Source of the DNA: Mobula hypostoma
Lineage: Eukaryota
NCBI RefSeq assembly: GCF_963921235.1
Contig: NC_086107.1
Coordinates: forward strand, 95,048,001-95,112,000
Reading direction: 5' to 3'
Length of the DNA: 64,000 nt
Positions 524 to 56,068 of the stretch are shown piece after piece. Made by a program: the position numbers and the translations under genes. Position 1 is the stretch's first letter. Every line of letters begins with the position of its first letter. The notes beneath the pieces were generated by a model. That model had not been told where the DNA came from and did not search any database. It saw nothing but the letters and a program-made list of their open reading frames with translations.

Positions 524-557
524 TTCTGACGAAGGGTCTCAGCCCGAAACGTCGACT
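524..557 (+). ncRNA. Hammerhead core with truncated stem I
   Basis: CTGACGA 526-532, GAAA 546-549, GTC 551-553; the 5' strand of stem I is largely missing. Confidence 0.45.
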
Positions 558-2841
558 GTACCTCTTCCTAGAGATGCTGCCTGGCCTGCTGCGTTCACCA
601 GCAACTTTGATGTGTGTTGCTTGAATTTCCAGCATCTGCAGAATTCCTCGTGTTTGTGTTTTTAAATTATACATAAATTAGTTTGCATATCATAGAGGGC
701 TCAACTAGTTAAATGCCTCACTAAGCTAATCCCTTCACCCTCCACAATGTCCATACAAATCAAGGTAATAAAATGGAAAACTATTTAACAGTTGCAGAGA
801 GGGAGCACAGTACAGGCAGACAATAAGGTGCAAGGACCACAGTGAGGTAGATTGTGAAGTGAAAAGTCCGTCTTATCGTAACTAGCAGATCATTCAATAA
901 AATATAACTGCGGAGTAAAAATGAAAGTAAGTTTAAATTTATTATTAATGCTTATGCCACCATACTCACTGGAATTTAGAAGAATGAGGAGAGATCTCAC
1001 TGAAACCTATCGAATATTGGAAGGTGTAGATAGAGTGGATGTGGAGAGGATGTTTCCTACGCTGGGGGAGTCTAGGACCAGAGGGCACAGCTGCAGAAAA
1101 GAGGGACATCCATTTAGAACAGAGATGATGAGGAATTTCTTTAGCTAGAGGGTGGTGAATCTGTGGAACTCTTTACCACAGGCACTGTGGAGGCCAGGTC
1201 ATTGGGTGTATTGAAGGCAGGGGTTGATAGGTTCTTGATTAGTCAGGGCTTTGAAGGTTATGGGGAGAAGGCAGTAGAATGGGGTTGATAGGGAAATGGT
1301 GGAGCAGACTCGATGGGCTGAATGGCCTAATTCTGCTTCTATGTCCTGTGGTCTTATATGCTACCTTGAGATTCATTTTCTTGCAAGCATGTAGAGGAAA
1401 GTAAAGAAAAACAATAGAACTTGTGAAAAACTGTGCATAACAAAGACAGAGACAATGTGCAAAAGAAGACAAATCATGAAAATAGTAAAAAGTAAATGAA
1501 TAATGTTGAGAATGAGTCACAGAGTCTTTGAAAGTGAATCCATTGGAGTCTGTAGGTTGTGAAGTAGAGGTGAGTGAAGTTATCCACGCTGGTTCAGGAT
1601 CCTGATGGTTGTGGGGTAATAACTGTTACTGAACCTGGCAGTGTGTGACCTAAGACTCTTGAATCTCTTGCCCAGTGGTAGAAGCTATCCTTAAGCATGC
1701 CGGGATGTGCTTTCAGGCGTTTTTATCTTCTGCCCAGTGGGAGGGAGAAGGGAGAGTGTCCGGACTGGGAGGAATCATTGATTCTGCTGACTGCTTCATC
1801 GAGGCAGTGGGAAGTGTAGACAGGGTCCACTGTGTCTGCCACCCTCTGCAGTTTCTTTTGGTGACTGGCAGAAGAGTTACTGTACCAAGTCCTGATACAT
1901 CTGAGTAGGAGCTTTCTGTAGTGCACCGATTTAAAAATCGGTAAGGGTCAAAGAGGACATGCCAATTTTTATCTAGGTGTCCATGTGCGTCTATGGTATC
2001 TGTCTCCACCACCCCCACCACCCTTGGAGCTCATTCCAGGTACCTGCCACTCTCTGTGTAAAAAAAAAAGTTCTCCAAGCACCTCCTTTGAACTTATCCC
2101 CTTCACACCTTAAACGGATGCTCTCAGTTATTAGACATTTCAAACCTGGGAAAGAGATACCAGACAACTACTCTATCTGCACTTCTCAATCATCTCATAA
2201 ACTTTTATTTTCTACACAAAGAACACAGTTAGATCAAAGGCAAAGTCCATGATAGCACACAATAGTGTTGGTTTACTGCGGTGGTGATCAGGGTTGTGAT
2301 TGGGGTCAAGAACCTGCTGGTTGAAGGGAAGTTGCTGATCCTGAACCTGGTGGTGTGGAACTTCAGGCTTCTGTACCTTCTGCCCAGTGGGAGCTGTAGG
2401 GAGATGACAAGGCCCGAACGTTGGAGACCTTTGATGGTAGATGTTGCCTTTTTGAGGCAGTACCTCCTGAAGATACTACCGATGGTTAGGGAGGGATGTG
2501 GTCCTCTACTCCCTGTGCTTCTAACGTTCCTGCACATTCAGATTGCCATACCAGACCATGATGCAACCAGTGAGGGCACTTCCAACAGTGTATCTGTAGA
2601 AGTTTGTTTGTGTTCGGTGACAAACCAAATCTCCTTGAGCTCCTAACCTTAGGACAACCTCACTAGGGGAACTTCCCAGAGTTCTGATCTCGGAATTTCA
2701 GGAAGGTGGCAGGGGAAAGTGTTTGACAAATTGGGATGTCCCATGCCGAGCCTCCAGGATGTTCAGAGAGGCAACACTGGGGTGAGGGAGCTGCCTGGGC
2801 AATGTGTTCACACCCGTCTCCTCTCTTCTCATTGGCTGCAG

Positions 2842-3005
2842 AACAGGCATGTGACCCAGCGCAAAATGCAGATGTGGCGGCTGTGGTGATGCAGGAGGGT
2901 CTGGCGCACATCTGCTTGGTGACGTCCTGTATGACGGTGCTGAGGGCCAAGGTGGAGAGCACGATCCCCAGGAAACGGAAAGGCAGCTGTTCTCAGCACG
3001 ACAAG
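2842..3005 (+). CDS. PELO: Pelota (Dom34/eRF1-like ribosome rescue factor), first coding exon visible in the window; upstream exons lie outside
   Basis: AG 2840-2841, GT 3006-3007; encodes EQACDPAQNADVAAVVMQEGLAHICLVTSCMTVLRAKVESTIPRKRKGSCSQHDK, matching human PELO EQACDPAWSADVAAVVMQEGLAHICLV...IPRKRKGNCSQHD. Confidence 0.96.
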
Positions 3006-3388
3006 GTGGGGTGGTGGGGTGGTGGGGTGATGGTGGGGGAGGAGAGCGGTGTCTGACACCCAGTCCCAGCAGGAGGGAGGAGGATGGTGTGTCCGGTACG
3101 CAGTTCCAGAGGTGGGGAGAGGACGGTGTGGCCAGCACCTGATCCCAGGGGGGTGTGAGAGGGTGGTGTGTCCGATGCCTAGTCCCAAAGGAGTTAGGAA
3201 GAGAAAGGTGTGTCTTACACCTGGTTCCGGAGTGGAGGTGGGGAGAGGTCCCAAGTGGGGAGAGGACGGTGTGTTCAATGCCTGGACTTGGAGAAGAGAG
3301 GGGAAGGGCGAAGATGGTTTTTGATACCCATGGTGGGCTTGGGGAGTGGACATTCACTCACTGACCTGCTGACCACACTCTGTTCTAG

Positions 3389-3449
3389 GCCCTGGAGAGG
3401 TTCTACGAGTCCGTCATGCAGGGGATCATTCGACACATCAACTTCGATG
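3389..3449 (+). CDS. PELO: Pelota coding exon
   Basis: ttctag|gcc...gat g|gtgggt; ALERFYESVMQGIIRHINFD; phases fit neighbouring exons. Confidence 0.95.
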
Positions 3450-4041
3450 GTGGGTGTCCTCTCCACCCTCCCTTCCATCACACTCCCCCTCCCCTATTCC
3501 CCTCTCTCTCCCCACCCCTGTTCCCCTCTGTCCACCCTCTTCTATCACACTCCCTCTCCTCCATTTCCCTCTCACCCCTATTCCCCTCTCTCCCCCTCCC
3601 TCACCCTCTCCTCCCCTCTCTCCCCCACCCTCCCTCTCTCTCTCCCCGTACCCCCTCCTCACTCTCTGTCCCCACCCTTCCCTACTCATTTCCTCTCCCC
3701 AGCCTTCTCTCTCTAACCCTCTCTTTCCCCACCTCCCACCACCTCTCCCTCCCCCTATCCCCCACTCTCCCTCTTCTCCTATATCTTCCACTCTCTTCTG
3801 TCCCACTCCTCCTCCTTTCCTTATTCTCCTCCCTCTCTCCCCTTTCTCCCTATCTCTCACCCCTCTCCCCCTACCTCTATCCCTTCCCCCTTTCTCACCC
3901 CTGCCTCTCCCCTCTTTCTCCCCCGCTTTTCCCCTCTCTCACCCTACCTTCTCTCCTCTTCTCTCTGGCCCCTCTCTCTTCCCCCTTTTCTCTCCCTCCC
4001 CAGACTCTGACACGCTGTTCCCTCTCTCCCCCACACCTCAG

Positions 4042-4203
4042 TGGTGAAGTGCGTGCTGATTGCCAGCCCTGGTTTCGTCAAAGAACACTTCTGCAATTAC
4101 ATGTTTGACCAGGCAGTGAAATCCGATCTCCGGCTCATCCTCGACAACCGCTCCAAGTTCCTACAGGTTCACTCCTCCTCTGGGCACAAGTACGCCCTTA
4201 AAG
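4042..4203 (+). CDS. PELO: Pelota coding exon
   Basis: ctcag|tg...aaa g|gtgagc; VVKCVLIASPGFVKEHFCNYMFDQAVKSDLRLILDNRSKFLQVHSSSGHKYALK. Confidence 0.96.
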
Positions 4204-4225
4204 GTGAGCCTCCTAATTGGGGTTA

Positions 4226-4422
4226 GTCCATGCATTCCACATCAGCCACGTTACCTCTCCCCCATCTACATGTCACTCCCTACTTTCCTGAGTGGGTTTC
4301 GTCCATGCACTCCCCATCTGCCACATTACCTCTCCCCCAACTACATGTCACTCCCTACTTTCCTGAGTGGGTTTCGTCCATGCACTCCCCATCTGCCACA
4401 TTACCTCTCCCCCATCTACATG
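4226..4422. repeat. 75-bp tandem repeat, about 2.6 copies
   Basis: gtccatgca starts at 4226, 4301 and 4376. Confidence 0.9.
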
Positions 4423-4794
4423 TTAGGAGTGTGACGGAACACTCCCCTAGGTCCAACAATTCTCAGGAAGCTCGGTGCCGTTCAGGTGCATGCTTGATCG
4501 GCTTCCTACCCACCCACCCCCCCCCCCAAAACACCACCTCCCTCCATTGGTTCAACACACTGCGGCCGCTCACCCAAACCTCGTGCCTCTCCTGGCCAGC
4601 ACCACATGCAGGTTCCCCATACACCCCACAACCCTCTCTCACCGGCTTCACTGTGGCCAGGACTGAATCCTGGATCTCCCTCAACCAACGGCACCATTGG
4701 AGCCCCGACACCAGAACAAACAGCAGACAGCCCACACTCAACGTTCCCTTTAACTTTTAGTACAGTTGCGTGGACCCAGCATGGCTCTGAGCAG

Positions 4795-5240
4795 CACACA
4801 CAAAATGCTGGTGAGCGCGGCAGGCCAGGCAGCATCTGTAGGAAGAAGTACGGTCGACTTCTTATTTTGTTAATGAAGTCAACGAGCTCAGCATGCGTGC
4901 AGGAAGCAGCACCAACGCAGTTGTCGATGTAGCGAAGCAAAAGTGGGGGACGGATGCCAGTATAGGCTTGGAACATGGACTGTTCCACAAAGCCAACAAA
5001 AAGGCAGGCGGGAATAGTCCATGTTCCAAGCCTATACTGGCATCCATCCCCCACTTTTCCTTCGCTATCTTAGCAACTGCATTGGCGCTGCTTCCTGCAC
5101 GCACGCTGAGCTCGTTGACTTCATTAACAGAATAAGAAGTCGACCATACTTCTTCCTATAGATGCTGTTTGGCCTGTCGTGTTCACCAGCATTTTGTGTG
5201 TGTTGCTTGAATTTCCAGCATCTGCAGATTTTCTCATGTT
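4795..5240. mobile_element. Penelope-like foldback insertion containing an RT fragment
   Basis: ~190-bp inverted arms; minus strand encodes ACLFVGFVEQSMFQAYTGIRPPLLLRYIDNCVGAASCTHAELVDFIN (RYIDD-type RT motif); TSD atggctc(t/c)gagcag at 4781-4794 and 5241-5254. Confidence 0.8.
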
Positions 5241-5559
5241 ATGGCTCCGAGCAGGAAGTTTTTGCCTGAAAATAGTGTGGTGCTATATTTTTGTAATATG
5301 CATACTATGAATATTGGATTGAAAATTGAAAAATCGCATACTTTTTATTTTATTTATTATTTGAAGGGTGTAATGGAATACAGTACAACCAAGAAAAGCT
5401 TTCACGTTTTGTAAACTTTTACTTGCTGCACGGCAACAAAGGCTAAGTGCACGGGAGCATTTCCGTTACTGAGTGGCCGTGTGCCAGCACAGCTTAGCGG
5501 GAACAGTGCTCACATTCACCTTCTCGGAGGTGATTAGGGATGGATGATGAACATAGACA

Positions 5560-5815
5560 ATTTCCCACCTTCGTGAGGGGATGCTTAGGGATGGGTGATA
5601 AATGCTGGCAATTTCCAACCTTCCCAAGGGGTTGATTAGGGATGGGCGATAAATGCTGGCAATTTCCAACCTTCCCAAGGGGTTGATTAGGGATGGGCGA
5701 TAAATGCTGGCAATTTCCATGCCTTCCCAAGGGGGTGATTAGGGATGGGTGATAAATGCTGGCAATTTCCCACCTTCCCAAGGGGGTGATTAGGGATGAG
5801 CGATAAATGCTGGGA
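5560..5815. repeat. 51-bp minisatellite, about 5 copies
   Basis: Unit gggttgattagggatgggcgataaatgctggcaatttccaaccttcccaag; inverted relatives at ~20650-20900 and 60880-60925. Confidence 0.9.
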
Positions 5816-6011
5816 AGATCCAAATAGCGTCCGATGTGCAGATGGGAACAAAAGGAGCTGAGTCCCCTTGGTAGGGGGGTCTGCGCAGACAGGAGTGGGT
5901 ATGGGGGTGGGTGGTGGGTGGAGAGGTGAGGTCAACTAATCTTTGGGTGGCATGCGGGGGAGCTGAAAGATTTCAATCAGTGCCTCATATCCTTCCCACT
6001 CTGTTTCTCAG

Positions 6012-6058
6012 AGGTGCTCTGTGATCCCAACGTGACAGGACGACTGGCCAACACGAAG
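6012..6058 (+). CDS. PELO: Pelota coding exon
   Basis: tttctcag|ag...aag|gtgagg; EVLCDPNVTGRLANTK (human EALCDPTVASRLSDTK). Confidence 0.93.
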
Positions 6059-7045: not shown

Positions 7046-7119
7046 GCAGCTGGGGAAGTGAAAGCGCTGGAAGATTTCTACAAGATGCTGAAACAAGAGC
7101 CGGACCGAGCCTTCTACGG
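7046..7119 (+). CDS. PELO: Pelota coding exon
   Basis: aacag|gca...tac gg|gtaggt; AAGEVKALEDFYKMLKQEPDRAFYG. Confidence 0.95.
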
Positions 7120-7257
7120 GTAGGTGTGGGCGAGAGGAGTCCGTGCGGTGAGGAAGGGGATTCTGTGGGGTGGGTGAGAGACAACTGAGAAGGAGGGCAG
7201 AGAAGGGTAAGGGGGGGGGGAATGAAGATAAAGAGAGGAAGGGAGTGTGAGGCAGAA

Positions 7258-15830: not shown

Positions 15831-16834
15831 CCATTCCCGCAATGGTGTTTCCATACCAGACTAGGATGCAACAAGTTCAGATACTGTCCACCTTGACTGG
15901 TCTGTTATTGTCTGAGATACAACAAAAAGTCTTTGTCTGCATACTGTCTTGACAGACCACTCCATACATCAGCACACTGAAGTTTGGAAACTGGAAAGAG
16001 CGCTGAGTTTGGGAGAGAGGCTGCACTTGGACTATTGCTCAAGAGGTTTAGATGGGGCAGAATTTGTTAGGTGCATCCAGGAGGGTATCCTATATCAGTA
16101 CGTAGATAGCCCAATGAGAGGAAGAACCATACTGAGCCTGGCCAGATGACTGACCTTTCAGTGGGGAAGCAGATAGTGAACAGTGATCATAACTCATTAA
16201 GTTTTTATGTATGTAGATGCAGATATGTATGGACTTTGAAAAAGAATATTAAATTGGAACAGGGCAAATTATGTGAGTATTGGACAGGAATTAGGGGAAG
16301 TTAATTGGGAACAGCTGCTTTTGGGCAAGTCTTTATCTGACATGTGGAGGGTGGTTTAAAGACCAACTGCACAGAGTACGCGACAGGTGTGTTCCAGTAA
16401 GAAGGGAGGACAAGGATGACATGGTAAGAAAACTTCGAATGTCAGAATAGGTGGTGAGTTTAGTCAAAAAGTGAAAAAGGAAGTGTCCATAAGGTTTAGG
16501 AAGTCAATATCAAACAGAACCATTTGAGGATTATAAAGAAGCCAAGAAGAGGGAATTAAGAGAAACACACACACACACACTATACTAGAGGAATTCAGCA
16601 GGTCAGGCGGCGTATATGGAGGGGAATAAACAGTTGACAACTTGGACCTAGACCCTTCATCAGGACTGCAAAGGAAGGGGGCAGATACTAGAATAAATAG
16701 GTGGGGTGGGGAAGAGGAGTACAGCTGGCAAGTGGTAGATGAGTTCGGGGTGGAGGAGGGGGGGAGGTGCACTGGGTGACAGAGGGGGAGATGATGTAAG
16801 AAGTTGGGAGTGATGGGTGAAGTGCTAGGAGGAG

Positions 16835-17570: not shown

Positions 17571-19740
17571 AACCAATTGCAATAAAGAACCGAAGAAGAA
17601 AGAATCTGATCGGAGAGGACAGTGGGCATTAGAATAAAGGGAAGGAGGTGGGAATCAGAAGAAGGTGATGGCCAGGTTGTGAGAACAGAAGAGAGAAAGG
17701 AGTGAGAGGGTCACTAGAATGGGTGAAAACAAGAAAAGGTGAGGGGAGAATCTCTTATAATGAGTTCTGCCCCTTCCTTTCCAGTTCTGGTAAGGGGTCT
17801 CGGCCTGAAATGTCAACTGCTTATTCCTCTCCGTCGATGTTGCCTGACCTGCTGAGTTCCTTCAGCATTTTGTGTATGCTACTCATGAGTTCCAGCAGCT
17901 GCAGAATCTCTTGTGTCCCTGACTTGGGAGTATTATGTTCCCTCCCGTTTGGTCACCCTGGTGTGGAAAAGAAGACATTAAGCTGGAAAGAGTGCAAGGG
18001 AGATTTCTGAGGATGTTGCTGGGACTTGAGAGACTGAGTTATACAGAAAGGTTGGGCAGGTTGAGACTTTGTTCCTTGGAGTGCGAGGGTGACATTATAG
18101 AGGTGTATAAAGCCATGAGGGGCCAAGGTAGAGCAAATGCACACAAGTCTTTTTCCCTAGGGCTGGGGTGGGGGGGGGGGGAATCAAGAATTAGAGGGCG
18201 CAGGTTTAAGGTGAGAGGAGAGACATTTAATAGGAACTTGAGGGACAACCTTTTCATTCAGATGGTGTCGATATGTGGAATGAGCTGCCAGAGAGGATGG
18301 TACAGTAACACCATTTAAAAGACACTTGGACAACATGTGGATAGGAAAGGTGTAGAGGGATTTGGCCAGATGTGGACAAATAGGACCAGCTTGGAAGGAA
18401 GTCTTGGTTGGCATGGACCAGTTGGGCCAGAGGGCCTGGTTATCTGCTGTGTGACCCTAATCAGTGGTAGGACAGTGGACAGTGTCGGTGGACCTCAAGG
18501 ATCCTCTGGACAAGTCCCTAGCTCCTTGATAGTGGCTGCACAAGTTACCAAGCTCTTCACCTCCTCCTTGTCCAGGGAGTGGCGGTCCCATTGGGATCTA
18601 TCCCAAGTCAGATGAGGCAGAGATTGTTCGGAAGGAGGGATGGAGGTCGAGGGAGTATGAGGGTGGGGGGGGGGAGGGATGGACCAGGGTGAGGGTGGGT
18701 GGTGGGAGGTCATCAGGGGGAGACACTCACTCTAACCTTTTGTTCCACCCTCTCTGTCCTCATCCCTCTACTTCTCCCCTCCTCTCTCCCTCCCTCATCC
18801 CTCCTTCCACCTCTCCTCACCTCTCACCACCTCCTCTTCCCTTCCTGTCCATCTCTTCCTCCTCCATCTCCACTTCCCTCTCCTCCTCTATCTCCACTTC
18901 CCTCTCCTCCCCATCTCCCCTTCCCTCTCCTCCTCTCTCTCACCTCCCTCCCCTCCTCCATCTCCCCTTCCCTCTCCTCCTCTCTCTCACCTCCCTCTTC
19001 TCCTCCATCTCCCCTTCCCTCTCCTCCTCCATCTCCCCTTCCCTCTCCTCCTCCATCTCCCCTTCCCTCTCCTCCTCTCTCTCACCTCCCTCCCCTCCTC
19101 CATCCCCTCTCCTCCTCCATCTCCCCTTCCCTCTCCTCCTCTCTCTCACCTCCCTCCCCTCCTCCATCTCCCCTTCCCTCTCCTCCTCCATCTCCCCTTC
19201 CCTCTCCTCCTCCATCTCCCCTTCCCTCTCCTCCTCCATCTCCCCTTCCCTCTCCTCCTCTCTCTCACCTCCCTCCCCTCCTCCATCTCCCCTTCCCTCT
19301 CCCCCTCTATCTCCCCTTCCCTCTCCTCCTCCATCTCCCCTTCCCTCTCCCCCTCTCTCTCACCTCCCTCCCCTCCTCGCTCCTTCCTCTCCCCTTCACT
19401 CTCTCCACACTTCCCCCTCCCTCCCTGTTCTTCCTCCCCTCTTTCTTCCTTTTCTTCTTCTCCCCCTCTCTCCCCATCCTTCCCTCCCTCATACCCATCC
19501 CTCCTTCCTCTACCCACTTCCTTTCCCTCCTTCCCCTTCCTCTCCTCCCTCCCTCCCATCTTTCTCCCCTTCCTTTTCCCACTCCCATCTTCCTCCCGCT
19601 CTCCTTTTGTCTCCTTTTCTCTCCCCACCCATCCTCCCTTCCTCTACCCACTCCCTTTCCCTCCTTCCCCCTCCCTTTCCCCATCTTCCCCCTCCCTCTC
19701 TCTCCTGCATCCTTACTCCTCCACATTCCGGCCACCACAG

Positions 19741-23724: not shown

Positions 23725-25969
23725 TTATACACTAACAAGAGAAATCCTGCAGATGCTGAAAATCCGAGCAACACACACACAAAATGCTGGAAGAACTCAG
23801 CAGGCCAGGACAGCATCTAGGAAAAGACAGAACAGTTGTAGATAAAGGCGGAGAAATTAGCAGATGGCGTTTAATCCGGCCAAGTTTGAGGTGTTGCACT
23901 TGGGAGTCAAATGGAAAGAGAGAGGACGCAGTTAACGGCAGGACCCTTAACAGCATTGATGTTTATAGGGATCTTGAGATCCAAGTCTACAGTTCCCTGA
24001 AACTGGTCGCAGGCGTAAGCAAGGTGGTAAAGGCGGCGTACGGCATGCTCGCCTTCGGTGGTCGGGGCATTGAATATGCGAGTCAGCTTTCAGCAGTCGA
24101 AAACTCTGGTTGGCCCGCATCTCAAGTATTGCATTCAGATCTGCTCGCATCTTTACAGGAACGGTGTGTGTGTGTGTGTGTGTGGTGGTGGGGGGGGGGG
24201 GGAGCTTTGGGGAGGTTCACCAGGATGCTGTCTGGATTAGAGGGCATGGAGATAGAAGGAGAGGTTGTTTCCCCTGGGGCGGCGGAGGCTGGTGGGGGGA
24301 GAGAGACGTGATATAAGTTTATCAGGTTATGAAAGGCACAGACAGGGTAGACAGTCGGCATCCTTTCCCATATTTGAGATGTCTAATACCAGCGGGTAAG
24401 CACTTAAGGTGCGAGGGGAAAAATTTCAAAGATGTACGGGGCTAGTTGTTTTTTTACACAGAGCGGCGGCACATACGAGTTATTTCTGCGTGGAGAAAAT
24501 GGAGTGATTTGGACCACATACAGGCAGAAGTTCTTTAAATTTAATCTGGAACCATGTTCAGCACAGGCATCGTGGGCCGAAAGGCCGGTTCCTGTGCTGT
24601 ACTATTCTACGTTCTGTGATCTATTTGGGCATGTAGGGGTTAACACAAGCCTTCGGGGTACAAATGGGTACGGGAACTGTTCCAACATCAGGGGCTTTGA
24701 TGAAAGCTCTTCGAGAGAAATCCAAAGAAACTTTCTCTTTAACATCAATCGAAATCTCAAACAGCTTCTCGAGCACAAGGCTCACACTTCAAACGATAGC
24801 AGCGCCGGGAGAAATCATCTCCCTGGAATAGACCCAGTCCTCTCTCACGCACACCTACGTCCGTGCTTTCTACCGAGTGAGTGTACGAGTAAATACCTGG
24901 GGTGAGGGGAGAGGTCGGTGTGTTTGTGGGGAGAGAACGGCGTCTGACGGTCCACGGACGGGCGGGGTCGGAGAAGAGAATTGTGTGTCCAGTGGCAGGT
25001 TCCGGGAAGGGGGGGGGGGGGGATGGTGTGAGGGAGTTGGATGAACATCACCTTTTCCCTTCGCTCGCCTCTCTCTGCCCCCTCCCACTTATTTCTCTTT
25101 CCTCCCCTTTGCCTGCTCCTCTCCAACTCCCACCCCTTTCTTAACCCGCTTCCACCTCCTCTCTTTCATCTCATTCCCCCTTCCCCTCTCTCTCTCACTG
25201 TCGCACTCTCCCTATCCCTCACCTCTCCTGCCCCCACCCTCTCTCCTCTCTCACTCCCCCTCCCTTCCCACTCTTGCTCCCTCTTCTCCCAGTCCCTCTC
25301 TTTCTCCTTCACCCCCTTTCCCCCTTCGCCCTATCCCGCTTCCTCCCTCTCCTGCACGTTCTCCTCCTTCCCCTTTCTCTTTCATCCTCCCTCATTCCCT
25401 TCTCTCCCGACCTCCCACAGACGAGTAAGGAGAGCTCCGCCTCCCCACCCCTCCCACCCCCTGCTCCTCTTAAACAGGGAACAGGTGATGCCTCGTTCAG
25501 TCTGCCTGGATCGGTCCTGCACCCTGGGTAATTCCGCCGGCGAGAGAGACAGAGAGACGGTGGACGTGTCTGCCAGAGTCTCGAACAGACCTACATGCTC
25601 CTGGTGCCGGGTTGGGAACAGACAGAAGAAGAGAGGGTACCGATGCCGGCGGAGGGCAGGTGTCTCCGCCTTGGGGCTTGATCCGTTGCTTGTTCCATCG
25701 TGAGGACTCAGGTCCTGGGACACTGATTAGCTCCTGAGAGGCACTCCCTTTCTATTCCCCCCCCCCCTCCCTCACCCCTCTCTCTCCCCCTTCTCTCTCC
25801 CTTCCTCCTCCCTCCCTGTCCCTCACTGTCACCTCTCCCTCCCTCCTTCCTTCCCCATCTCTCTCCTTCCCCTAACATCGACAACCACTCTCCTCTTCAC
25901 CCTCAATTTTGCTATTTTACCCTCTCTCCCTCCTTCCTCCTGTTGGGTGTTCTTCCAGAAAGACCAGCG

Positions 25970-27557: not shown

Positions 27558-27938
27558 CCCCCTCCCCTTCACCATTCCCTTCTCACCCTATCTCCTTAGC
27601 TGCCCATCACCTCCCTCTGGTGCTTCTCTCGCTTCCCTTTCTTCCATGGTCTTCTGTCCTCTCCCATCAGATTCCCCCTTCTCCAGCCCTTTATCTCTTT
27701 CACCAATCGACTTCCCAGATTTTACTTCATCCATTCCTCCCACCTTCCTGGTTTCACTTACCACCTCCCCCATCTTCTTACTCTCACCTCATCTTTTTTC
27801 TCCAGTCCTGATGAAGGGTCTCGGCCTGAAACGTCAATTGTTTACTCTTTTCCACAGATGCTGCCTGGCCTGCTGAGTTCCTCCAGCATTTTGTGTGTGT
27901 TGCTTGGATTTCCAGCATCTGCAGATTTTCTCCTGCTA
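27558..27938 (+). mobile_element. Penelope-like 3' end/pseudo-LTR inserted in a Rex1 fragment
   Basis: 13-bp TSD aatgaaatatagc (27545-27557; 27939-27951); same terminus as copies at ~524-655, 16563-16830, 17780-17915, 23734-23838, 31038-31136, 50232-50330, 50535-50660 and 54635-54690. Confidence 0.75.
27803..27840 (+). ncRNA. Minimal type I hammerhead ribozyme motif
   Basis: cagtc-CTGATGA-agggtctcggcct-GAAA-c-GTC-aattg; stem I has one mismatch. Confidence 0.6.
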
Positions 27939-30476: not shown

Positions 30477-30568
30477 GAACCCGGACGGTGATGTACAGCC
30501 GTGGTGTTACATCTCGGAGAGCGAGGAAGGCATTTACTGGAAGTACTGCAGTATCCCCAGCTGTACAA
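30477..30568 (+). CDS. KREMEN2: Kremen2 kringle domain exon b
   Basis: NPDGDVQPWCYISESEEGIYWKYCSIPSCT; tag|g...a|gtgagt. Confidence 0.95.
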
Positions 30569-31103
30569 GTGAGTACCCTCACATCGTCGCTGACCCACTC
30601 GCCCCTTGCACGCTCACAAATGTATCATTTCTTGCTTCCTGGTTGACTACTGCACATCCACCAATGCACTAATTCCCTGCACACTCACCAGTGCACTGAT
30701 TTCTACACACTTGCCAACACACTGAATTACTTTCTCACTCACTAATCTATTCACCTCTCACCAGTGCACCCATATCTTCTTACTAATGTGTGCATGTCTT
30801 GCACACTCACCAATGATTGGTTTCTTGTACACTTGCCAATGCACTAATTTCAGGCATGCTCATTTACACACTATTTTCTAGCATACTTGCCATGCACTGA
30901 ATTCTTACCCACTGGTGCACAGAATCCTTGCACACTTGCCATTGCACCATTTTCTCACATGCTTGCCAGTGCGATGATCTCCTCTCACCAAGTGCCCTAT
31001 GCACCAATTTTGTGCACACTCACAAGTGCAGTAGGTTAAGCAACACACATCAAAGTTGCTGGTGAACGCAGCAGGCCAGGCAGCATCTCTAGGAAGCGGT
31101 GCA

Positions 31104-31137
31104 GTCGACGTTTCAGGCCGAGACCCTTCGTCAGGAC
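31104..31137 (-). ncRNA. Minimal type I hammerhead ribozyme motif
   Basis: Minus strand gtc-CTGACGA-agggtctcggcct-GAAA-c-GTC-gac; insertion flanked by 9-bp TSD cagtaggtt (31029-31037; 31137-31145). Confidence 0.6.
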
Positions 31138-31620: not shown

Positions 31621-32732
31621 GTAGGCTCTGCCACGGACGGTGGGTGTGGGGAACCGTTCACACTCCCCGCTAGCAGTGCATGGCCACCCTGTATACATTA
31701 TCACCTGTGTGCGTGCATCTCCCTGTATACACGCTCGCCAGCAGTGCATTCCGCACACGACTTCATACATGATTCTCCCCGTGTGCATGCAGCTTCCCGC
31801 ACACATCACGCTGCCCGACCTGCTGAGTTCCTCCAGCGTGTTGTGAGTGTTGCTTTGGCCCCAGCATCTGCAGAGTATCATTGCCCGCGCACATCGCCCT
31901 GCATGCACACTCACTGGTGTGCACACGAATCCACGTGCAAATGCTCGCCAGCTCTCCTGCTGCAGTCCGCACCCCAGCTTTGCTGCCCTGTCTACGCGCA
32001 TTTCTTCATAAATTATATTTATGAAATAGAATTTCTTTATTTTCCTGCAAGAAAACGAATCTCAGGGTACCATTTGGTAACATTATATGTATTATGACTT
32101 TGACCTCGTCGCGTTTGTACTTTCCTGTGGTCCTCACGGACTTGCATCGGCTTGCGTTCGGAGGGGTGCTGAGAGAACGTCTCGGCCCTGGTGGCGTCGG
32201 GAGGGGGAGCCAAGTTGCCTGCTTACGGGAGCAGGGCAGGAGTGGAGAGGGGCGCCCCTCCCCCCGCATTCCAGTGGAGTGAGAGCCGATGATAGTGCGT
32301 GTGTGAGTGAGAGTGTGTCTGCCCTTGTGTGCCCGAGTTGTCTGTGTGCATCACTTTGGTGTCTGTGTGTGTGATTTTGAGTGTGCATCTTCGTGTGTGA
32401 GTGTGTGTGCCAATCGTTCTGCGTCGTGTTAGTGTGTACCGGGGTGCTGAGTGTGCGAGGGGTGAGGATGGGCAGAGACCCCAGCCCCGAGATCCGTAGG
32501 AGGGAATAGGTAACGGGGTTGGGGTTGTTAGACCCACCATTGCCGCCCCCCCCCCACCGTAGTGCACAGTACAGGACGAGAGGGGGGCCTTGGAGAGGTG
32601 TGGTGAGTCAGAGAGGTGATGGGAGGAGGGAGACGTGAGTTGGACGAACGTTGGACGGGGGGGGGCGGTTGGCTGAGTCGGGACCACCAGATCTTCATCA
32701 CCGCTCTCCCCCCCCCCCCCCCACCACCTTAG

Positions 32733-49645: not shown

Positions 49646-50789
49646 TACTTAATTTTTATGCAAACTCCTGTTTTTCTCATCCTAAATGTCAATCTTTGGA
49701 ATATATTTTATTATTTGTTAATTTATTTGCAGTAATATGACATTATACGTTGTGTGTGAGTTTTATAGTTGTGCACCTTGGTCTTTCGTTTGGCGGTGTA
49801 CATGAATGTAGTTGAATGACAATAATCTTGAACTTGGTATGTCATATGTTGTGAAATTTGTTCTTTTTAGGCAGCAAAACAGTGTGATATGTAAAAATAT
49901 GATGTTACTATGACAAGTAGAAGGCTGAGTGCTGGGTGATGAGAAGTGGGGGGCAGGGATCATGGTTGACGGACAGGAGGGTGAGAAGGGGCAGGGCCTA
50001 TGATTGACAGGAGGATATCAAGCAAAGCAAATTTAAATGACGGGTAGATAGGAAGGGGCAGGATCTAGGATTGATTGACAGATAGATGAGAAGGAGCAGC
50101 ATTGACTGACAAGGTGGATGAGACTGTTTGACAGGGGAGAAGGGGCAGACCATAGCACGGACTAATGGATGGATGAGAAGAGGATGTCACCTAGTGTTGA
50201 TTGACAGAAGAATGAGAGCGGGTGGGCCATAAAGCCCTGATGAAGAGCAGCAGCCTGATACATCGACTGTTTATTCCCCTCCATAGATGCTGCATGACAT
50301 GCTGAGTTACTCCAGTATTTTGTGCGTGTGGGCCAAAACATTGACTGACAGGTGGATGAGAAAGGGGCGGGTCTGAGGGAACTAGGGGCGGGGCATATGG
50401 TTGAATGGCAGGAGGATGAGTTGGGGGCTGTCACTGACTGGCAGCAGGATTGGAAAAGGGCGGGGCCTAAGGTTGATTGACAGGAGGATAGGTCGGGGTC
50501 TGTCATTAGAGATCTATCATTGACTGGCTGATCGTTCTGCCGAAGGGTCTCGGCCCGAAACGTCGATACTCTTTTCCATAGATACAGCCTGGCCTGCTGA
50601 GTTCCTCCAGCATTGTGTGTGTGTTGCTCGGGTTTCCAGCATCTGCAGATTTTTCCTTGTTGACTGGCAGGATGCAAAGGGGCGGAACTAATAGTTGACT
50701 GACAGGTGTGCGAGGAAGCTCGGGACATTTCATTAGCTGACAGGGTGAACTGAAGGGCAGGACTTATCAATGACTGACAGGATGACGAT

Positions 50790-51520: not shown

Positions 51521-53398
51521 GTGTGTGTGGGGTGGGGGCAGAGATCCAGGGTAGGGTCATGGGCAGCCAGCTCGGGCCAGTACAACGAGCTCGGTAACAT
51601 CTACACCCAAGGTCCCAGTGACCTAGGGGAGGGATTGTTCCGGGTGGGGGGAGGTAGAGGAGAGGTGGAAAGAGGTGTTGATCTGGGGTGGACGGGGGAG
51701 AGGGAGGTGGGTTTACGGGCCGGGAAGTGGGTTGACCAGGGTGGTGGGAACGGACGGGAGAGTGAGGTGGGGGAGGTTGGTATGATGGGGAAAGGAGGGA
51801 ACGTGGGTTGATGGGATGGAAGAGTTGGAGCAGATTGGTGGGATAGGAGGGGTCGGTGGCTTGCCACGGGGTATGAGGGAAGAGAGTAGGTTGGTAGGGT
51901 GGAGAACCAATCTGTTTCCAGCCTCCCTCTGTGGCCCATCACCTTACAATAGACAATAGGTGCAGGAGTAGGCCATTCGGCCCTTTGAGCCAGCACCACC
52001 ATTCACTGTGATCATGGCTGATCACCCACAATCAGTATCCACTTCCTGCCTTATCCCCATAACCTTTGATTCCACTATCTTTAAGAGCTCTATCCATCTT
52101 TTTCTTGAAAGTATCCAGAGACTTGGCCTCCACAGCCTTCTGGGGCAGAGCATTCCATATATCCACCATTCTCTGGGTGTGGAACCACAGCCAGCCAGCC
52201 AACCTCCTCTGCCCAGCATCCTGTCATCCCAGTCCCCATTTCCTTGAGCCTGTTCCATTCACCCCAACAAATCATCCAATCAAGTCTGTTTGTGTGAAAT
52301 CCCCTTCCCCTCCCCAGAGAAGTGTTGCTTCCTTGCAGCATCCTGGTGGGTTTCCATGAAGGAAGCAGGTGTTCAGCCACCTTCCTGGGGTGAAGGAGGC
52401 TCAGGGGTGACCCGATGTGTGTGAAAGATTATCCCAGGCATCAATGGGGGAAGGAGAATCTTTGTTCCTCCACTTTTCCCCTGTGGAAGCAAATCAAGGG
52501 GTTAGGTTTTGGGAGAGAGGAAGGAAGTTTAAAGAGGACTGTTGGTATGCATGTGTGAGTTCGCCACAAGACATAGGAGCTGAATTAGGCTATTCAGCCC
52601 CTCGAATCTGCTCTGCTATTCCATCATATCTGATTTATTTTCCCTCTCAACCCCAATCTCCTATCTTCTCTCTGTAACCTTTGACACCCATACTAACCAA
52701 GAACCTATCAGCCTCCACTTTAAATATACCTAATGACATGCCTGTCACGGGCATCTGTGGTGATGATATCACAGATTCATTACCCTCTGACTAAAGAAAT
52801 TCCTCCATGTCTGTATTCTAAAGGGGTGACCTCATATTCTGAGCCCGTGTACTCTGGTCCTAGACTCTCCCACTATTGGAAACATCCTCTCCACATCCAC
52901 TCTGTCTAGGCTTTTCAATATTCTAAAAGTTTCAATTACAGTCCCTGCCATTCTTCTGATTCCAGTGAGTACAGGCCCAGAACTATCAAATATTCCTCAT
53001 ATGTTAACCCTTTCATTCCTGGGATCATTCTTACAAATCTCCACTGGACCCTCTCCAATGTCAGCAGGTCCTTTCTAAGATACGAAGCCGAAAACTGATC
53101 ATAGTACTCCAAATGCAGTCTGACCAATGCCTTATAAAGACTCAGAATTACATCCTTGCTTTTTGTATTCTAATCCACTGGAAATGAATGCTAATATTAG
53201 ATTTGCCTTGTCAAAGGCCTTCTGAAAATACAAGTAAACAACATCCACTGACTCTCCTTTCTCTATGCTGCCTCAAAGAATTCCAACAGATCTGTCAGGC
53301 AAACAACAGGAATTCTGCAGATGCTGGAAATTCAAGCAACATACATCAAAGTTGCTGGTGAACGCGGCAGGCCAGGCAGCATCTATAGGAAGAGGCGC

Positions 53399-53434
53399 AG
53401 TCGACGTTTCAGGCGGAGACCCTTCGTCAGGACT
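53399..53434 (-). ncRNA. Minimal type I hammerhead ribozyme motif
   Basis: Minus strand agtc-CTGACGA-agggtctccgcct-GAAA-c-GTC-gact; 4-bp stem I intact. Confidence 0.65.
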
Positions 53435-53450
53435 AACTCTTCCTTCAGTT

Positions 53451-53486
53451 AGTCCTGACGAAGGGTCTCGGCCTGAAATGTCGACT
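53451..53486 (+). ncRNA. Minimal type I hammerhead ribozyme motif (C>T change in the stem III palindrome)
   Basis: agtc-CTGACGA-agggtctcggcct-GAAA-t-GTC-gact. Confidence 0.55.
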
Positions 53487-56068
53487 GCGCCTCTTCCTAT
53501 AGATGCTGCTTGGCCTGCTGCGTTCATGAGATCTGTCAGGCAATTTTTTACCTTTACAACAGAGATGAGGAATTTCTTTAGCTAGAGGGTTGTGAATTAG
53601 TGGAATTCATTGCCTCAGATTTCACTAGAGGCCATGTCATTGGGTATATTTAAAGTGGAGGTCGATTAGTTAGTGTCAAAGGCTAAGGGCTGAATGTAGG
53701 AGAATGAAGGTTCATTTTATTATCAAAGCATGTATGCAGAATATATCTGAGACATCCAGTTAGCCATTGAATATAGAAAACCATACAAGTAGCTGAAAGA
53801 AAGACATCAATTTCCTCCCCCCACATGAAAAGAAAAAGAAACAAAGCCTTGCAAGCCCCAAACACCCTAGTGAGATTGAGAGGGATGATAAATCAGTTAT
53901 GATTGAATGGTGGAGCAGACGCAATGGACCAAATGGCCTAATTCTGCTATGTCAGGAATTTGATGGAAAGGCTTGATCGGTGTGTCAGAGCATCAGGAAA
54001 CTGATGGGAGGTGTTTTTGGAGGAAATATTGTTGGATCATCAGTGAAGCAATTGGTCTGTGCTGTGTATTAACATGGGTTGGAGGTGTGCTGAGAATGCA
54101 CACTGTGTAACGGTCTCTGGCTGCAAAGCTCCAACACCTCCTCCAGGACCTCTGTAAATCAGCCCTGACATGCACTTTGGGCTAATTGGTCCCCAGAGGA
54201 GCCTGCCTGAGTGAGCAACAGGGTAAACACCAGGCACTCGAGGGAGGTCACGGTTGGGGCTGGCTGTGCTTCTCCCAGCTAAGCCGTGCACCTGTCCTCC
54301 CCGTATCACTCATCCTTGTGTTGTTCAAGACCCGTCCGCCGTTCCCCTCCGTAGGTTGTCTGGACTGATGTCTCCCCCCCACCCCCATCACTGCAACAAA
54401 TGCGGTCGGCTCATGGAATGTGTGTGGGTGGGGAGGGGTGCCTTTGGTTTCTCTCCGCTGAAGCTCAGCCATCGGTGTGTGGGGCCCCCGTGTACTCTAC
54501 CATGCTCAGCCCTCAAACAGGCAGTTTGTATCCCTGGACCGGGATGCTGTGTAACTTGGTGTACTCTGTCCGGGTTACAGTAGACATTGAACATTGGCAA
54601 TCGTTTAGGCTGCCTTGTTTACCCATCTCCAGGCTCCCTGACCTGCTGAGCTCCCCAGCATTTTGTTGTGTGTGCATCTGCAAAATCTCTCGCTTATGAT
54701 AGATCAGAATCTGGTTTAATATCACCAGCAGACGTTGTAAAATTTGTTAACTTTGTGGCAGCAGTACAATGCAAAACATGATAATATAGTAAAAAAAACT
54801 GCACTACAGCAAGAATATACATATTAAACAGTTAAATTAAGGAAGTAATACAAAAAGAGAAATAAAAATATGTAATGAGGTAGTGTTCATGGGTTCACTG
54901 TCCACTCAGAAACCGGATGGCAGAGGGGAAGAGGCTGTTCCTGAATTGAGTGTGTCTCTTCAGGCTTCTGTACCTCCTTCCTGTTGGCAGCAACGAGAAG
55001 AGATCATGTCTTGAGAGGTGGGGGTCCTTAATGATGGATGCCCCCTTTTTCAGGCACCACTTCTTGAAGATGTCGTATGGGATACTATGGGGGCTAGTAT
55101 CCATGATGGAGCTGATTAATTTTACAGGTTTCTACAACTTCGATCTTGTGCATTAGCCTCCCCCCCAACCCCGTACCAGGCGGTGATGCTGCCTATGATA
55201 CATCTGTAGACATTAGCGAGTGTTTTGGGTGACAAACCAAATCTCCTCAAGCTCCTAATGAAATGTAGCTGCTGTCTTGCCTTTCCAGCTGCATCAATAT
55301 ATTACGACCAGGTTTGGCCCTCAGAGATATTGACACCCAGGAGCTTCAAACTGCTCACTCTCTCCACTTCTGATTCCTCTGAGGACTGGTGTGTGTTCGC
55401 TCATCTTACCCGTTCTGAAGTCCACAATCAATTCTGTGATCTTACTGATGTTGAGTGCAAAGTTTTTGCAGCACTCGTTTGCTCCTTATGCCCTCTCATC
55501 ACCATCTGAGATGAGATGGTCCTTATTATCTGCCTGACCTGCTCGTTCCACATTTTTTTCTCCCCCCCCCCCCACCCACGCCATCTCTATGTGGGGCAGA
55601 GGCAGATGCTGGTGGGTGGGAGGAGAGGCAGAGAGAAGCCACGGTAAGAAGAAAGGACAGCGGGGGTGGGGGTAAACAGGAAAAAGTGGAAACAACATGG
55701 ATGCAAGGGTGTGTAAAAATGAGAGTCTGTGGCTGAGCGGTAGCAATTGCAGTGCTTTGGGGTAGGGAGAGAGAGGAGGGAGAAGCAGTGTATGTGAGGG
55801 TTCATCATAATGGAAGACACAACAGCAAGCAGTGGGAGGGGTAAATTCTCAGAGTGGGACAGAGAGGGAGGTAAGGTGGGGCAGACAATGCGAGGGTGTG
55901 TCAGAACAAGGGAGAGAGACAGCACTGAGCAGTGGGGCCCCCAGGTCAGCGATAATCTGCTGTCACCCAGTAGATGATTAGGTTAGCCTAGCCCATAATC
56001 CCCACTCAGAGCAACTACTACTCTTCCCCACCCACCACCCTTCACGGTCTGAGGGGTTGAACCCATTA

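What the first reader, a model, noticed from the sequence alone, without database searches (positions are those of the whole stretch)
524..54690. Dispersed Penelope-like terminus carrying a minimal hammerhead ribozyme
Seen: about ten copies of one short repeat. The best copies read agtc-CTGA(C/T)GA-stem-loop-GAAA-C-GTC-gact (27803-27840 +, 31104-31137 -, 53399-53434 -, 53451-53486 +, 524-557 +). This gives both conserved hammerhead boxes, a GUC cleavage triplet, a stem I formed by the flanks, and a stem III reduced to the palindrome ACGT. Several insertions have 9-15-bp TSDs, and one is fused to an RYIDD-type RT fragment. Known: Penelope-like elements carry minimal type I hammerheads with palindromic stem III that cleave as dimers. 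Inference: this abundant repeat is a ribozyme-bearing PLE terminus, and sense copies sit in the KREMEN2 and PAQR4 pre-mRNA introns.
Basis: partly seen in the sequence, partly recalled or inferred. Interest (0 to 1): 0.8.

Follow-up and report, generated by a model that had tools for sequence, protein, structure and literature searches.

The report
Penelope-derived hammerhead repeat in a ray
A short repeat scattered through this ray genome window is the tail end of a Penelope-like jumping gene and carries a minimal hammerhead ribozyme motif, a known kind of element whose copies here look like decaying leftovers, not working ribozymes.

Summary
The repeat is real. There are 14 loci in 64 kb. Nine keep the hammerhead segment, four of those keep every core box, and one meets a full minimal-hammerhead descriptor.

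Several features tie it to a canonical Penelope-like element (PLE):
- Two copies are fused to a 55-aa reverse-transcriptase piece. Its full-length relatives carry RT plus a C-terminal GIY-YIG nuclease.
- Insertions have 9-15 bp target-site duplications.
- There is an optional 31-33-nt 3' tail.
- Two insertions are inverted twins, each bounded by one duplication.

Contigs of two related species hold the repeat in tens of thousands of pieces, some as head-to-tail tandems.

The motif matches the published PLE minimal hammerhead, including an unpaired base after A9 and a palindromic ACGU in place of helix III (PMC4209133).

Cleavage is untested. The window gives no covariation, and the hammerhead is not significantly better conserved than the rest of the repeat.

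The core-intact copy in the Kremen-like gene is antisense to it, and PAQR4 was not found.

Verdict: a new member of a known kind. This scan has noted PLE hammerheads before, in rotifer genomes.

The parts
524..654 (+). Repeat copy. Hammerhead core intact (526-553), helix I 5' strand missing, body ends at 622, tail 623-654. It is nested next to another repeat family.
4781..4794 (.). Left target-site duplication of the inverted twin insertion (14 bp, 1 mismatch to 5241-5254).
4795..5017 (-). Arm 1 of the inverted twin. PLE RT fragment (4851-5015, LRYIDN) joined at about 4859 to the repeat body. No hammerhead 5' part and no tail.
5018..5240 (+). Arm 2 of the inverted twin. Shorter RT fragment, the same junction (5138-5149), repeat body, and tail ending at 5240.
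5241..5254 (.). Right target-site duplication of the inverted twin insertion.
16558..16760 (-). Old long copy. Hammerhead segment has 3 of 12 core positions changed. A pyrimidine-rich upstream part ends in CAG just before helix I. The 5' limit is approximate.
17760..17917 (+). Old copy with 2 of 12 core positions changed. Tail ends at 17917. The 5' limit is approximate.
23734..23880 (-). Copy with a decayed hammerhead remnant. Body and tail (ends at 23734) are kept. The 5' limit is approximate.
27740..27937 (+). Long copy. Pyrimidine tract plus CAG, hammerhead 27803-27840 with intact core but an A.C mismatch at the first helix I pair, tail 27906-27937. The 5' limit is not defined.
31029..31037 (.). 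Target-site duplication (9 bp), repeated at 31137-31145.
31038..31136 (-). Short tail-less copy with intact core. It begins 2 nt before the first box and lies antisense in an intron of the Kremen-like gene.
31790..31880 (+). Partial copy, 3' part only, no hammerhead. Limits are approximate.
50233..50327 (+). Short tail-less copy with 1 of 12 core positions changed and helix II decayed. Flanked by an 11-bp duplication with 1 mismatch.
50529..50661 (+). Copy with A6 changed to C. Tail ends at 50661. The 9-bp flanking repeat is ambiguous.
53288..53302 (.). Target-site duplication (15 bp, perfect), repeated at 53529-53543.
53303..53438 (-). Arm 1 of the second inverted twin. The only copy that meets the full minimal-hammerhead descriptor (core 53403-53430, helix I 5 bp). 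Tail 53303-53333.
53447..53528 (+). Arm 2 of the second inverted twin. Reads GAAATGTC (palindrome broken) and is cut short at its 3' side.
54620..54691 (+). Partial copy, 3' part and a tail remnant, no hammerhead. The 5' limit is approximate.

Best explanation
These are dispersed copies of the 3'-terminal (pseudo-LTR) part of a canonical, endonuclease-bearing Penelope-like retroelement of a ray, or of a short non-autonomous derivative that uses the same machinery. They are mostly short or 5'-truncated.

A complete copy reads, 5' to 3':
- a pyrimidine-rich stretch;
- a minimal type I hammerhead;
- about 65 nt of body;
- an optional 31-33-nt tail.

The hammerhead consists of a helix I of about 5 bp (AGUC/GACU plus one more pair), CUGAYGA, one unpaired A, a 4-bp helix II with a 4-nt loop, GAAA, then ACGU in place of helix III, with the cleavage triplet GUC.

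Inferred: the copies were made by target-primed reverse transcription with the element's RT and GIY-YIG nuclease. That would give 9-15 bp duplications, two alternative 3' ends, and twin inverted insertions.

Inferred from the published family: with no helix III, one copy cannot form an active site. Two copies on one RNA must pair their ACGU palindromes. Solitary and inverted copies in this window would therefore be inert relics. Many have also lost core bases, mostly by CpG decay. Any cleavage would belong to tandem source copies elsewhere in the genome.
For: Repeat family:
- 14 loci.
- The strict core pattern occurs 4 times against 0.01 in shuffles.
- The proposed pairs hold in 87.9% of cells, against 18-44% when partners are slid.

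Motif features that match the published PLE minimal hammerhead and were not part of the search:
- an unpaired base after A9, in 8 of 9 copies;
- a short helix I;
- a palindromic 15.2-16.2 pair, CG in 5 of 9 copies. The published features are from PMC4209133, read.

Link to PLEs:
- The RT piece at 4851-5015 is 70-89% identical to 6 ray proteins.
- One of them has a CX4CXXC linker and a GIY-YIG match.
- 21 of 95 full-length relatives carry a precomputed GIY-YIG domain.
- P0011 scores RVT_1 29.4 bits and GIY-YIG 25.0 bits against a cut-off of 22.6. The window fragment aligns to its residues 428-478 at 53% identity.

Insertion signature:
- TSDs in 5 of the 8 boundary pairs tested.
- Two inverted twins, each inside a single TSD.
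- A 31-33-nt tail present in at least 6 copies and absent in at least 3. PMC11167929 (passages) describes this as a signature unique to PLEs.

Other genomic copies:
- 59,432 and 36,684 contig records of two species fit the repeat.
- Loose ends show both the tailed and the tail-less 3' end, the latter next to A/T-rich DNA.
- Joints show head-to-tail tandems (steps back of 103, 75 and 34 nt) and strand-switch junctions.
- No position inside the hammerhead (31107-31137) shows another letter at a share of 10% or more. Seven of the 64 positions in the rest of the repeat do.
Against: - No copy in the window lies next to a complete PLE ORF. tblastn finds only the one RT region. The link therefore rests on an internally deleted fusion and on insertion signatures.
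- There is no covariation. 500 shuffles do as well as the real alignment.
- In the window the hammerhead columns are not significantly better conserved than the rest: 0.868 against 0.824, one-sided p = 0.11.
- The 0-of-31 against 7-of-64 contrast is weak, and the tool says some differences were not counted.
- The 10.1-11.1 pair is G.U in 6 of 9 copies, not the G-C stressed in PMC4209133.
- Rfam's hammerhead models do not match, at gathering score over the whole window or at E up to 10 on 27700-28000.
- Folding energies are no better than shuffles, z from -0.77 to +0.63.
- The predicted monomer fold pairs part of the first box with CGUC.
- Published PLE minimal hammerheads cleave poorly in vitro even as dimers (PMC4209133). 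In the Anolis element, ribozyme mutants did not affect insertion in vitro (PMC11167929, passages).
Confidence: 0.8

Rival explanations
1. The family is a non-LTR retrozyme in the strict sense. Short tandem units, each with a hammerhead, would be transcribed, cut to unit length, circularised and copied back. The dispersed monomers in the window would be its dead offspring, not truncated ends of autonomous PLEs.
For: - Contigs of both species contain head-to-tail junctions with steps of 103, 75 and 34 nt.
- Five independent short insertions begin within 2-8 nt of the first box, not at random points.
- Density is very high, 14 loci per 64 kb.
- A 2026 preprint argues that animal retrozymes are non-autonomous PLE derivatives and found them in its one chondrichthyan sample (10.64898/2026.07.22.740005, results section).
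Against: - There is no tandem copy in the window.
- Only a handful of tandem-junction contigs appear among tens of thousands of records.
- Published retrozymes carry canonical type I hammerheads with loop-loop contacts, whereas this motif is the minimal PLE type (PMC7229834, passages).
- Copies that keep the whole hammerhead cannot come from RNA cut at that site.
- Circular RNA could not be tested.
Confidence: 0.15
2. The repeat is an ordinary SINE or LINE tail unrelated to PLEs, and the hammerhead-like boxes are a chance resemblance.
For: - Rfam hammerhead models do not match.
- There is no covariation.
- Folding is no more stable than in shuffles.
- All copies descend from one family, so the four strict matches amount to one independent occurrence.
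Against: - 13 fixed bases at the right spacing, plus helices I and II in register.
- An unpaired base after A9 and a palindromic ACGU.
- Fusion to a PLE RT piece.
- The PLE-type tail and inverted twin insertions.
- No tRNA-like sequence anywhere in the window.
Confidence: 0.04
3. The intronic copies are working ribozymes that cut host pre-mRNAs (Kremen-like gene, PAQR4) and so regulate them.
For: Sense-strand copies exist near or in the Kremen-like gene (27808+ and 31810+).
Against: - The copy at 31810 has no hammerhead.
- The copy at 27808 has a mismatch at the first helix I pair and lies upstream of the first exon detected.
- The core-intact copy inside the gene (31038-31136) is antisense.
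- No two sense copies lie close enough together to pair as a dimer.
- PAQR4 was not found.
- The copies show neutral-looking decay.
Confidence: 0.02

Closest known systems
Minimal hammerhead motifs in the pseudo-LTRs of metazoan Penelope-like elements (Xena, Poseidon and Neptune of fishes; coelacanth, Xenopus, reptiles). Cervera and De la Pena 2014, PMC4209133.
   Same: - Type I topology with no helix III.
- A palindromic 15.2-16.2 pair.
- An unpaired base between A9 and 10.1.
- A short helix I of 4-5 bp.
- Mostly solitary copies spread through the genome, plus some pairs on opposite strands about 100-700 bp apart.
   Different: - Helix II is 4 bp, not the 6-8 bp described for several families.
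- The 10.1-11.1 pair is G.U in most copies.
- The host is a ray, a group not named in that paper's main text.
- Density here (9 hammerhead-bearing loci per 64 kb) would extrapolate far above the 4,000-9,000 motifs reported per genome.
Poseidon element of Anolis carolinensis (PAc), with internal initiation of reverse transcription. PMC11167929.
   Same: - Two alternative 3' ends about 30-40 nt apart (the 'tail').
- A/T-rich flanks next to tail-less ends.
- A hammerhead near the unit's end.
- Insertions that keep an uncut hammerhead.
   Different: - In PAc the ORF starts inside the ribozyme. Here the position relative to any ORF is unknown.
- The ray RT relatives have a CX4CXXC linker, which PMC8557442 (passages) ascribes to the Neptune and Nematis clades, not to Penelope/Poseidon.
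Non-LTR retrozymes of animals. PMC7229834 and bioRxiv 10.64898/2026.07.22.740005.
   Same: - Short non-coding units with a type I hammerhead.
- TSDs longer than 4 bp.
- Co-occurrence with PLEs.
- Many solitary monomers.
   Different: - Retrozymes are defined by tandem arrays and canonical hammerheads with loop-loop contacts.
- Here the window has no tandem, and the motif is the minimal PLE type.
Penelope of Drosophila virilis: the hammerhead variant whose helix I starts where the element's intron ends. PMC4209133.
   Same: In 3 of 3 long copies here, a pyrimidine tract ending in CAG abuts the 5' strand of helix I.
   Different: No intron has been shown here. The resemblance to a splice acceptor is by eye only.

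Membership tests
PLE minimal type I hammerhead (min-HHR) | Core boxes CUGANGA ... GAAA ... UH at hammerhead spacing. | tested here: met
   4 of 9 hammerhead-bearing copies are exact. The other 5 each differ at 1-3 positions of the motif: core changes in four of them, and a broken ACGU palindrome in 53455+.
PLE minimal type I hammerhead (min-HHR) | Helix I (4-5 bp) closed by the flanks, and helix II closed by a loop. | tested here: met
   Helix I has 80% and helix II 97% of cells paired across 9 copies. Only 1 of 9 copies has a contiguous helix I of 4 bp or more, because several copies are truncated or decayed there.
PLE minimal type I hammerhead (min-HHR) | An unpaired nucleotide between A9 and 10.1, and a G10.1-C11.1 pair. 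| tested here: inconclusive
   The unpaired A is present in 8 of 9 copies. The 10.1-11.1 pair is G-C in 3 copies and G.U in 6. An A-U register without a bulge is also possible.
PLE minimal type I hammerhead (min-HHR) | No helix III; palindromic 15.1-16.1 (ACGU) that allows pairing between two copies. | tested here: met
   A-U is found in 8 of 9 copies. The inner pair is C-G in 5 of 9 and U-G in 3.
PLE minimal type I hammerhead (min-HHR) | Self-cleavage after H17 as a dimer. | not testable with these tools
   All runs laid were contigs, which cannot show RNA ends. ViennaRNA could not score the dimer because the pairing is pseudoknotted.
Rfam hammerhead families | A match to a curated covariance model. 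| tested here: not met
   There were 0 matches at gathering score in the whole window. No hammerhead family matched at E up to 10 on 27700-28000. That these models require a helix III is recalled, not checked.
Canonical EN+ Penelope-like element | An ORF with a PLE-type RT followed by a C-terminal GIY-YIG nuclease. | tested here: inconclusive
   The window holds only a 55-aa RT piece, present twice. Its relatives have RT plus GIY-YIG. No nuclease sequence occurs in the window.
Canonical EN+ Penelope-like element | The hammerhead-bearing repeat forms the pseudo-LTRs that flank the ORF. | not testable with these tools
   No genome is held. Scans of metagenome and viral collections gave only chance seeds.
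Canonical EN+ Penelope-like element | An optional 30-40 bp tail at one end of insertions. | tested here: met
   The tail is 31-33 nt. It is present at 526, 5139, 17787, 27808, 50537 and 53430 (measured) and also at 23827. It is absent at 4858, 31134 and 50237. Both 3' ends are also seen among other genomic copies.
Canonical EN+ Penelope-like element | Partial tandems and inverted 5'-truncated twin copies. | tested here: met
   Two inverted twins (4795-5240 and 53303-53528) each lie inside one TSD. Tandems are seen only in contigs of other loci.
Non-LTR retrozyme | Tandem array with a type I hammerhead in every unit. | tested here: not met
   There is no tandem among the 14 loci of the window. 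A few tandem junctions appear in contigs from elsewhere in the genome.
Non-LTR retrozyme | Unit-length circular RNA. | not testable with these tools
   No raw RNA reads were available.

The most novel reading that the evidence does not exclude
The repeat is a SINE-like element mobilised by a PLE that has reached several hundred thousand copies in ray genomes. That would be the largest load of hammerhead motifs known in any genome.

Its source copies would carry two hammerheads about 35 nt apart, so the dimeric ribozyme could form within one RNA.

A splice-acceptor-like signal abuts helix I, as at the intron end in Drosophila virilis Penelope. This would mean that coupling between splicing and ribozyme assembly is an old, conserved PLE trait.
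Probability: 0.15. Interest if true: 0.6.

Novelty: new member of a known kind. Interest (0 to 1): 0.35.

Why it matters
- It extends the known association between Penelope-like elements and minimal hammerheads to rays, and it suggests an unusually large amplification there.
- Contigs from elsewhere in the genome point to natural tandem and double-hammerhead arrangements. These could be used to test whether such minimal motifs cut only as dimers.
- For annotation, hammerhead-like boxes in the introns of this genome are retroelement leftovers and should not be read as host regulatory ribozymes.
- The insertions give clean examples of the PLE-specific tail and of twin inverted insertions bounded by a single duplication.

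Tried and rejected
- **Rfam.** No match at gathering score on the whole window. No hammerhead family at E up to 10 on 27700-28000.
- **Own genome.** Not held. I could therefore build no genome-wide consensus and could not look for a full-length PLE carrying this repeat.
- **Metagenome contigs.** The hammerhead pattern gave 0 hits. A 19-mer from the repeat body gave 114 loci, plus 1 viral locus. BLASTN showed every match limited to 19-32 nt around the seed, and tblastn with the PLE proteins found nothing. These are chance matches.
- **Sequencing runs.** No RNA holder was listed. Two runs guessed to be RNA (X16, X18) laid 1,754 and 5,383 records on the repeat but had zero depth on the flanks. 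This shows only that sequences bearing the repeat are in those libraries. All runs were contigs, so RNA starts and ends, and hence cleavage, could not be read.
- **Empty-site test in the related species.** No contig skips the 31038-31136 insertion. Flank contigs of X5 run 23 nt into the repeat from each side, which is under the tool's 31-letter rule for bridging. The insertion is probably shared by the two species, but this is not proven.
- **Covariation.** No better than shuffles.
- **Conservation, hammerhead against the rest of the repeat, in the window.** Not significant.
- **Folding energy against shuffles.** No signal.
- **Dimer energy.** Could not be evaluated.
- **PAQR4.** No HlyIII hit in 499 ORFs. 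These came from 612 ORFs of 45 aa or more that passed an entropy filter, out of 777. Left out were ORFs of 45-61 aa between 17.6 and 43.4 kb, and 23 ORFs overlapping repeat copies or the LTR-element remnant.
- **tRNA-like head.** None.
- **Supplements of PMC4209133.** In the 2 files searched, there was no occurrence of the first box joined to this family's next four bases, and none of shark names. One file could not be searched.
- **RT-to-repeat junction as a trace of ribozyme cutting.** The junction at 4848-4859 and 5138-5149 lies next to GTC|GAC. I rejected it as evidence because the GTC itself is retained, so the junction lies upstream of the cleavage site.
- **Earlier notes of this scan.** None exist for this genome.

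Full report
**What is there**

BLASTN with two copies of the repeat finds 14 loci in the 64-kb window. A 19-mer from the repeat body matches 9 times at up to 3 mismatches, against 0.01 expected. A MAFFT alignment shows a unit of about 100 nt, or about 135 nt when a 3' extension is present. Copies fall into two sequence groups: a younger one (526, 31134, 53430, 53455, 4858, 5139) and an older one (27808, 50537, 17787, 50237, 16664, 23827, 31810, 54633).

Five keep only the 3' part or a decayed remnant. All five copies named in the finding are at the stated coordinates.

**The hammerhead motif**

The strict pattern CTGANGA-N8-20-GAAACGTH occurs four times (526+, 27808+, 31134-, 53430-). The mean over 200 shuffles was 0.01. 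Because the copies are related, this is really one independent occurrence.

In hammerhead numbering, the best copy (53430-) reads in this order:
- helix I 5' strand, UAGUC;
- C3-A9, CUGACGA;
- one unpaired A;
- helix II, GGGU/GCCU, with a 4-nt loop;
- G12-A14 and A15.1, GAAA;
- C15.2-G16.2;
- U16.1-C17;
- helix I 3' strand, GACUG.

There is no helix III, only the palindrome ACGU. Across the nine copies the proposed pairs hold in 87.9% of cells, against 18-44% when the partners are slid by 1-3 columns. Shuffling does as well as the real data, so there is no covariation.

A fuller descriptor asked for both boxes, a helix II of 3 bp or more, a palindromic centre and a contiguous helix I of 4 bp or more. 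Only 53430- meets it, and 100 shuffles gave none. The other core-intact copies fail at helix I. The copies at 31134 and 526 start only 2-3 nt before the first box, and 27808 has an A.C mismatch at the first pair.

Five copies have lost core bases or the palindrome. Several of the changes are C-to-T or G-to-A at CpG sites. These include the Y in CUGAYGA, GAAACG to GAAATG, and GTCGAC to GTCAAC.

Rfam hammerhead models do not match at any threshold tried.

**Comparison with the published family**

I read the main text of Cervera and De la Pena 2014 (PMC4209133). It lists features of PLE minimal hammerheads that emerged without being part of their search:
- an unpaired base between positions 9 and 10.1;
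- a palindromic 15.2-16.2 pair;
- a short helix I of 4-5 bp;
- a G10.1-C11.1 pair.

The first three are present here. The unpaired A occurs in 8 of 9 copies, and the inner pair is C-G in 5 of 9. The fourth is only partly met: G-C in 3 copies and G.U in 6. The paper also describes mostly solitary copies, and pairs on opposite strands 100-700 bp apart, which is what this window shows. It reports only low cleavage in vitro for dimeric or trimeric constructs.

**Link to a Penelope-like element**

At 4795-5240 two copies lie head to head. Each is fused at the same junction to a reverse-transcriptase piece. The RT motif reads LRYIDN in one arm and LRYLSN in the other.
- The 55-aa piece (P0001) hits six ray proteins at 70-89% identity.
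- One of them shows a CX4CXXC linker and a weak GIY-YIG match.
- A search for longer relatives gave 95 proteins of 654-2000 aa. Of these, 21 carry a precomputed GIY-YIG domain.
- P0011 (806 aa) scores RVT_1 at 29.4 bits and GIY-YIG at 25.0 bits, against a cut-off of 22.6.
- The window fragment aligns to P0011 residues 428-478 at 53% identity.

RT followed by a C-terminal GIY-YIG nuclease is the canonical PLE architecture. Passages of PMC8557442 ascribe the extra cysteine linker to the Neptune and Nematis clades. The window contains no other PLE coding sequence, so the physical order ORF-then-repeat is not shown.

**Insertion signatures**

A script confirmed flanking direct repeats:
- 9 bp around 31038-31136;
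- 15 bp around the whole inverted pair 53303-53528;
- 14 bp with one mismatch around the whole inverted pair 4795-5240;
- 11 bp with one mismatch around 50233-50327;
- an ambiguous 9 bp around 50529-50661.

None was found for the copies at 526, 23827 or 27808.

Each inverted twin sits inside a single duplication, so each arose in one event. This is the arrangement drawn for PLEs in PMC8557442 (passages).

Copies end at one of two places. One is after the GT-rich stretch of the body. The other is 31-33 nt further on. This extension is present at 526, 5139, 17787, 27808, 50537 and 53430 (measured) and also at 23827. It is absent at 4858, 31134 and 50237. PMC11167929 (passages) traces such a 30-40 bp tail to two adjacent start sites of reverse transcription and calls it a signature unique to PLEs.

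**Other genomic copies**

No genome was held. I therefore laid contigs of four public runs on 30800-31400. The DNA run of the window's species (X1, possibly its own source) laid 59,432 records on the repeat. A related species (X5) laid 36,684.

Summed contig depth over the repeat is about a million times that of the flanks, but the tool warns that this is not a copy number. The window's own density is one locus per 4.6 kb. If the window is typical of a genome of a few gigabases (size recalled, not checked), that extrapolates to several hundred thousand copies. This is an inference.

One search also showed the following:
- Loose ends at the 3' boundary fall into a class that continues with the tail and a class that continues with A/T-rich sequence.
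- Joints include steps back of 103, 75 and 34 nt, which are head-to-tail tandems. Among them are hammerhead-only units directly in front of a full unit.
- Several joints switch strand.
- No position within the hammerhead (31107-31137) shows another letter at a share of 10% or more, while 7 of the 64 remaining positions do.

The last point is suggestive only. The tool notes that some differences were not counted, and positions near alignment ends are under-called. In the window itself the hammerhead columns are not significantly better conserved than the rest (0.868 against 0.824, p = 0.11).

**Host genes**

I scanned 499 stop-to-stop ORFs against Pfam. A Kringle-Kringle-WSC-CUB gene lies on the + strand at 29.7-33.9 kb. 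This is the Kremen architecture.
- The core-intact copy at 31038-31136 lies between the second Kringle exon and the WSC exon, on the opposite strand.
- The copy at 27808 is in the sense orientation but upstream of the first exon detected.
- The sense copy at 31810 has no hammerhead.
- The inverted twin at 4795-5240 lies after two + strand exons with eRF1 domain 2.
- No HlyIII (PAQR) domain was found.

**How it most likely works**

Shown:
- the family and its hammerhead motif;
- the RT homology;
- the duplications, the tail and the inverted twins;
- the abundance in two species;
- tandem junctions elsewhere in the genome.

Inferred:
- Copies were made by the PLE's RT and nuclease acting on RNA that still carried an uncut hammerhead. 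This agrees with the in-vitro finding, for the Anolis element, that unprocessed RNA is the main template (PMC11167929, passages).
- The motif needs a second copy on the same RNA to build helix III.
- Solitary copies are inert, and inverted twins would instead fold into a long hairpin (-180.7 kcal/mol for 53303-53528).

**Novelty**

Five literature searches listed no paper that describes this repeat, or PLE hammerheads, in rays or sharks. A 2026 preprint sampled one chondrichthyan for retrozymes and PLEs (results section). Its supplements are closed and might name related families. The kind of element is well described, so this is a new member of a known kind. Earlier notes of this scan report PLE hammerheads in rotifers and nothing for this genome.

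Noticed in passing
27780-27805 (+), 16669-16695 (-), 17762-17783 (+): In all 3 long copies, a pyrimidine-rich tract ending in CAG lies directly before or overlaps the 5' strand of helix I. It looks like a 3' splice site. The loose-end consensus of other genomic copies also reads T-rich and then CA before GTCC. In Drosophila virilis Penelope the intron ends at helix I (PMC4209133).
   Followed up: partly
526, 31136, 50233, 50535, 53438/53447: Five independent short insertions begin within 2-8 nt upstream of the first hammerhead box, not at random points. Their template RNA or source unit may therefore start at helix I. No copy starts at the base after GUC.
   Followed up: partly
4848-4859 (-) and 5138-5149 (+): The junction between the RT fragment and the repeat lies within about 10 nt upstream of GTC|GAC and is identical in both arms. 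About 10 nt at the junction match neither the RT relatives nor the repeat.
   Followed up: partly
53303-53528: The inverted twin would fold into a hairpin of about 75 bp in any transcript (-180.7 kcal/mol). It is a possible source of double-stranded RNA.
   Followed up: no
29690-33937 (+): A Kremen-like gene: Kringle exons at 29690-29887 and 30448-30669, a WSC domain within 31357-32094, and a CUB domain within 33302-33937.
   Followed up: partly
2727-3053 and 4011-4223 (+): Two exons matching eRF1 domain 2, from a pelota- or eRF1-like gene. The inverted PLE insertion lies just downstream of them.
   Followed up: no
14373-14657 (-), 41988-42792 (+), 16829-17356 (+), 55125-55301 (-): Fragments of other reverse transcriptases (RVT_1) and ALKBH8_N-like pieces. 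They are not PLE-like by tblastn and are probably LINE remnants.
   Followed up: no
56481-57828 (-): Remnant of an LTR retroelement: integrase core, integrase zinc-binding domain, and an RNase H-like domain.
   Followed up: no
28489-28668 and 29315-29664: Tandem repeats with periods of 52 and 53 nt, in 3.5 and 6.6 copies at 95-97% match, just upstream of the first Kringle exon.
   Followed up: no
200-525, 12983-13208 (-), 17410-17472, 47535-47787: Another dispersed repeat family. The copy at 526 is inserted next to, or into, one of its members.
   Followed up: no
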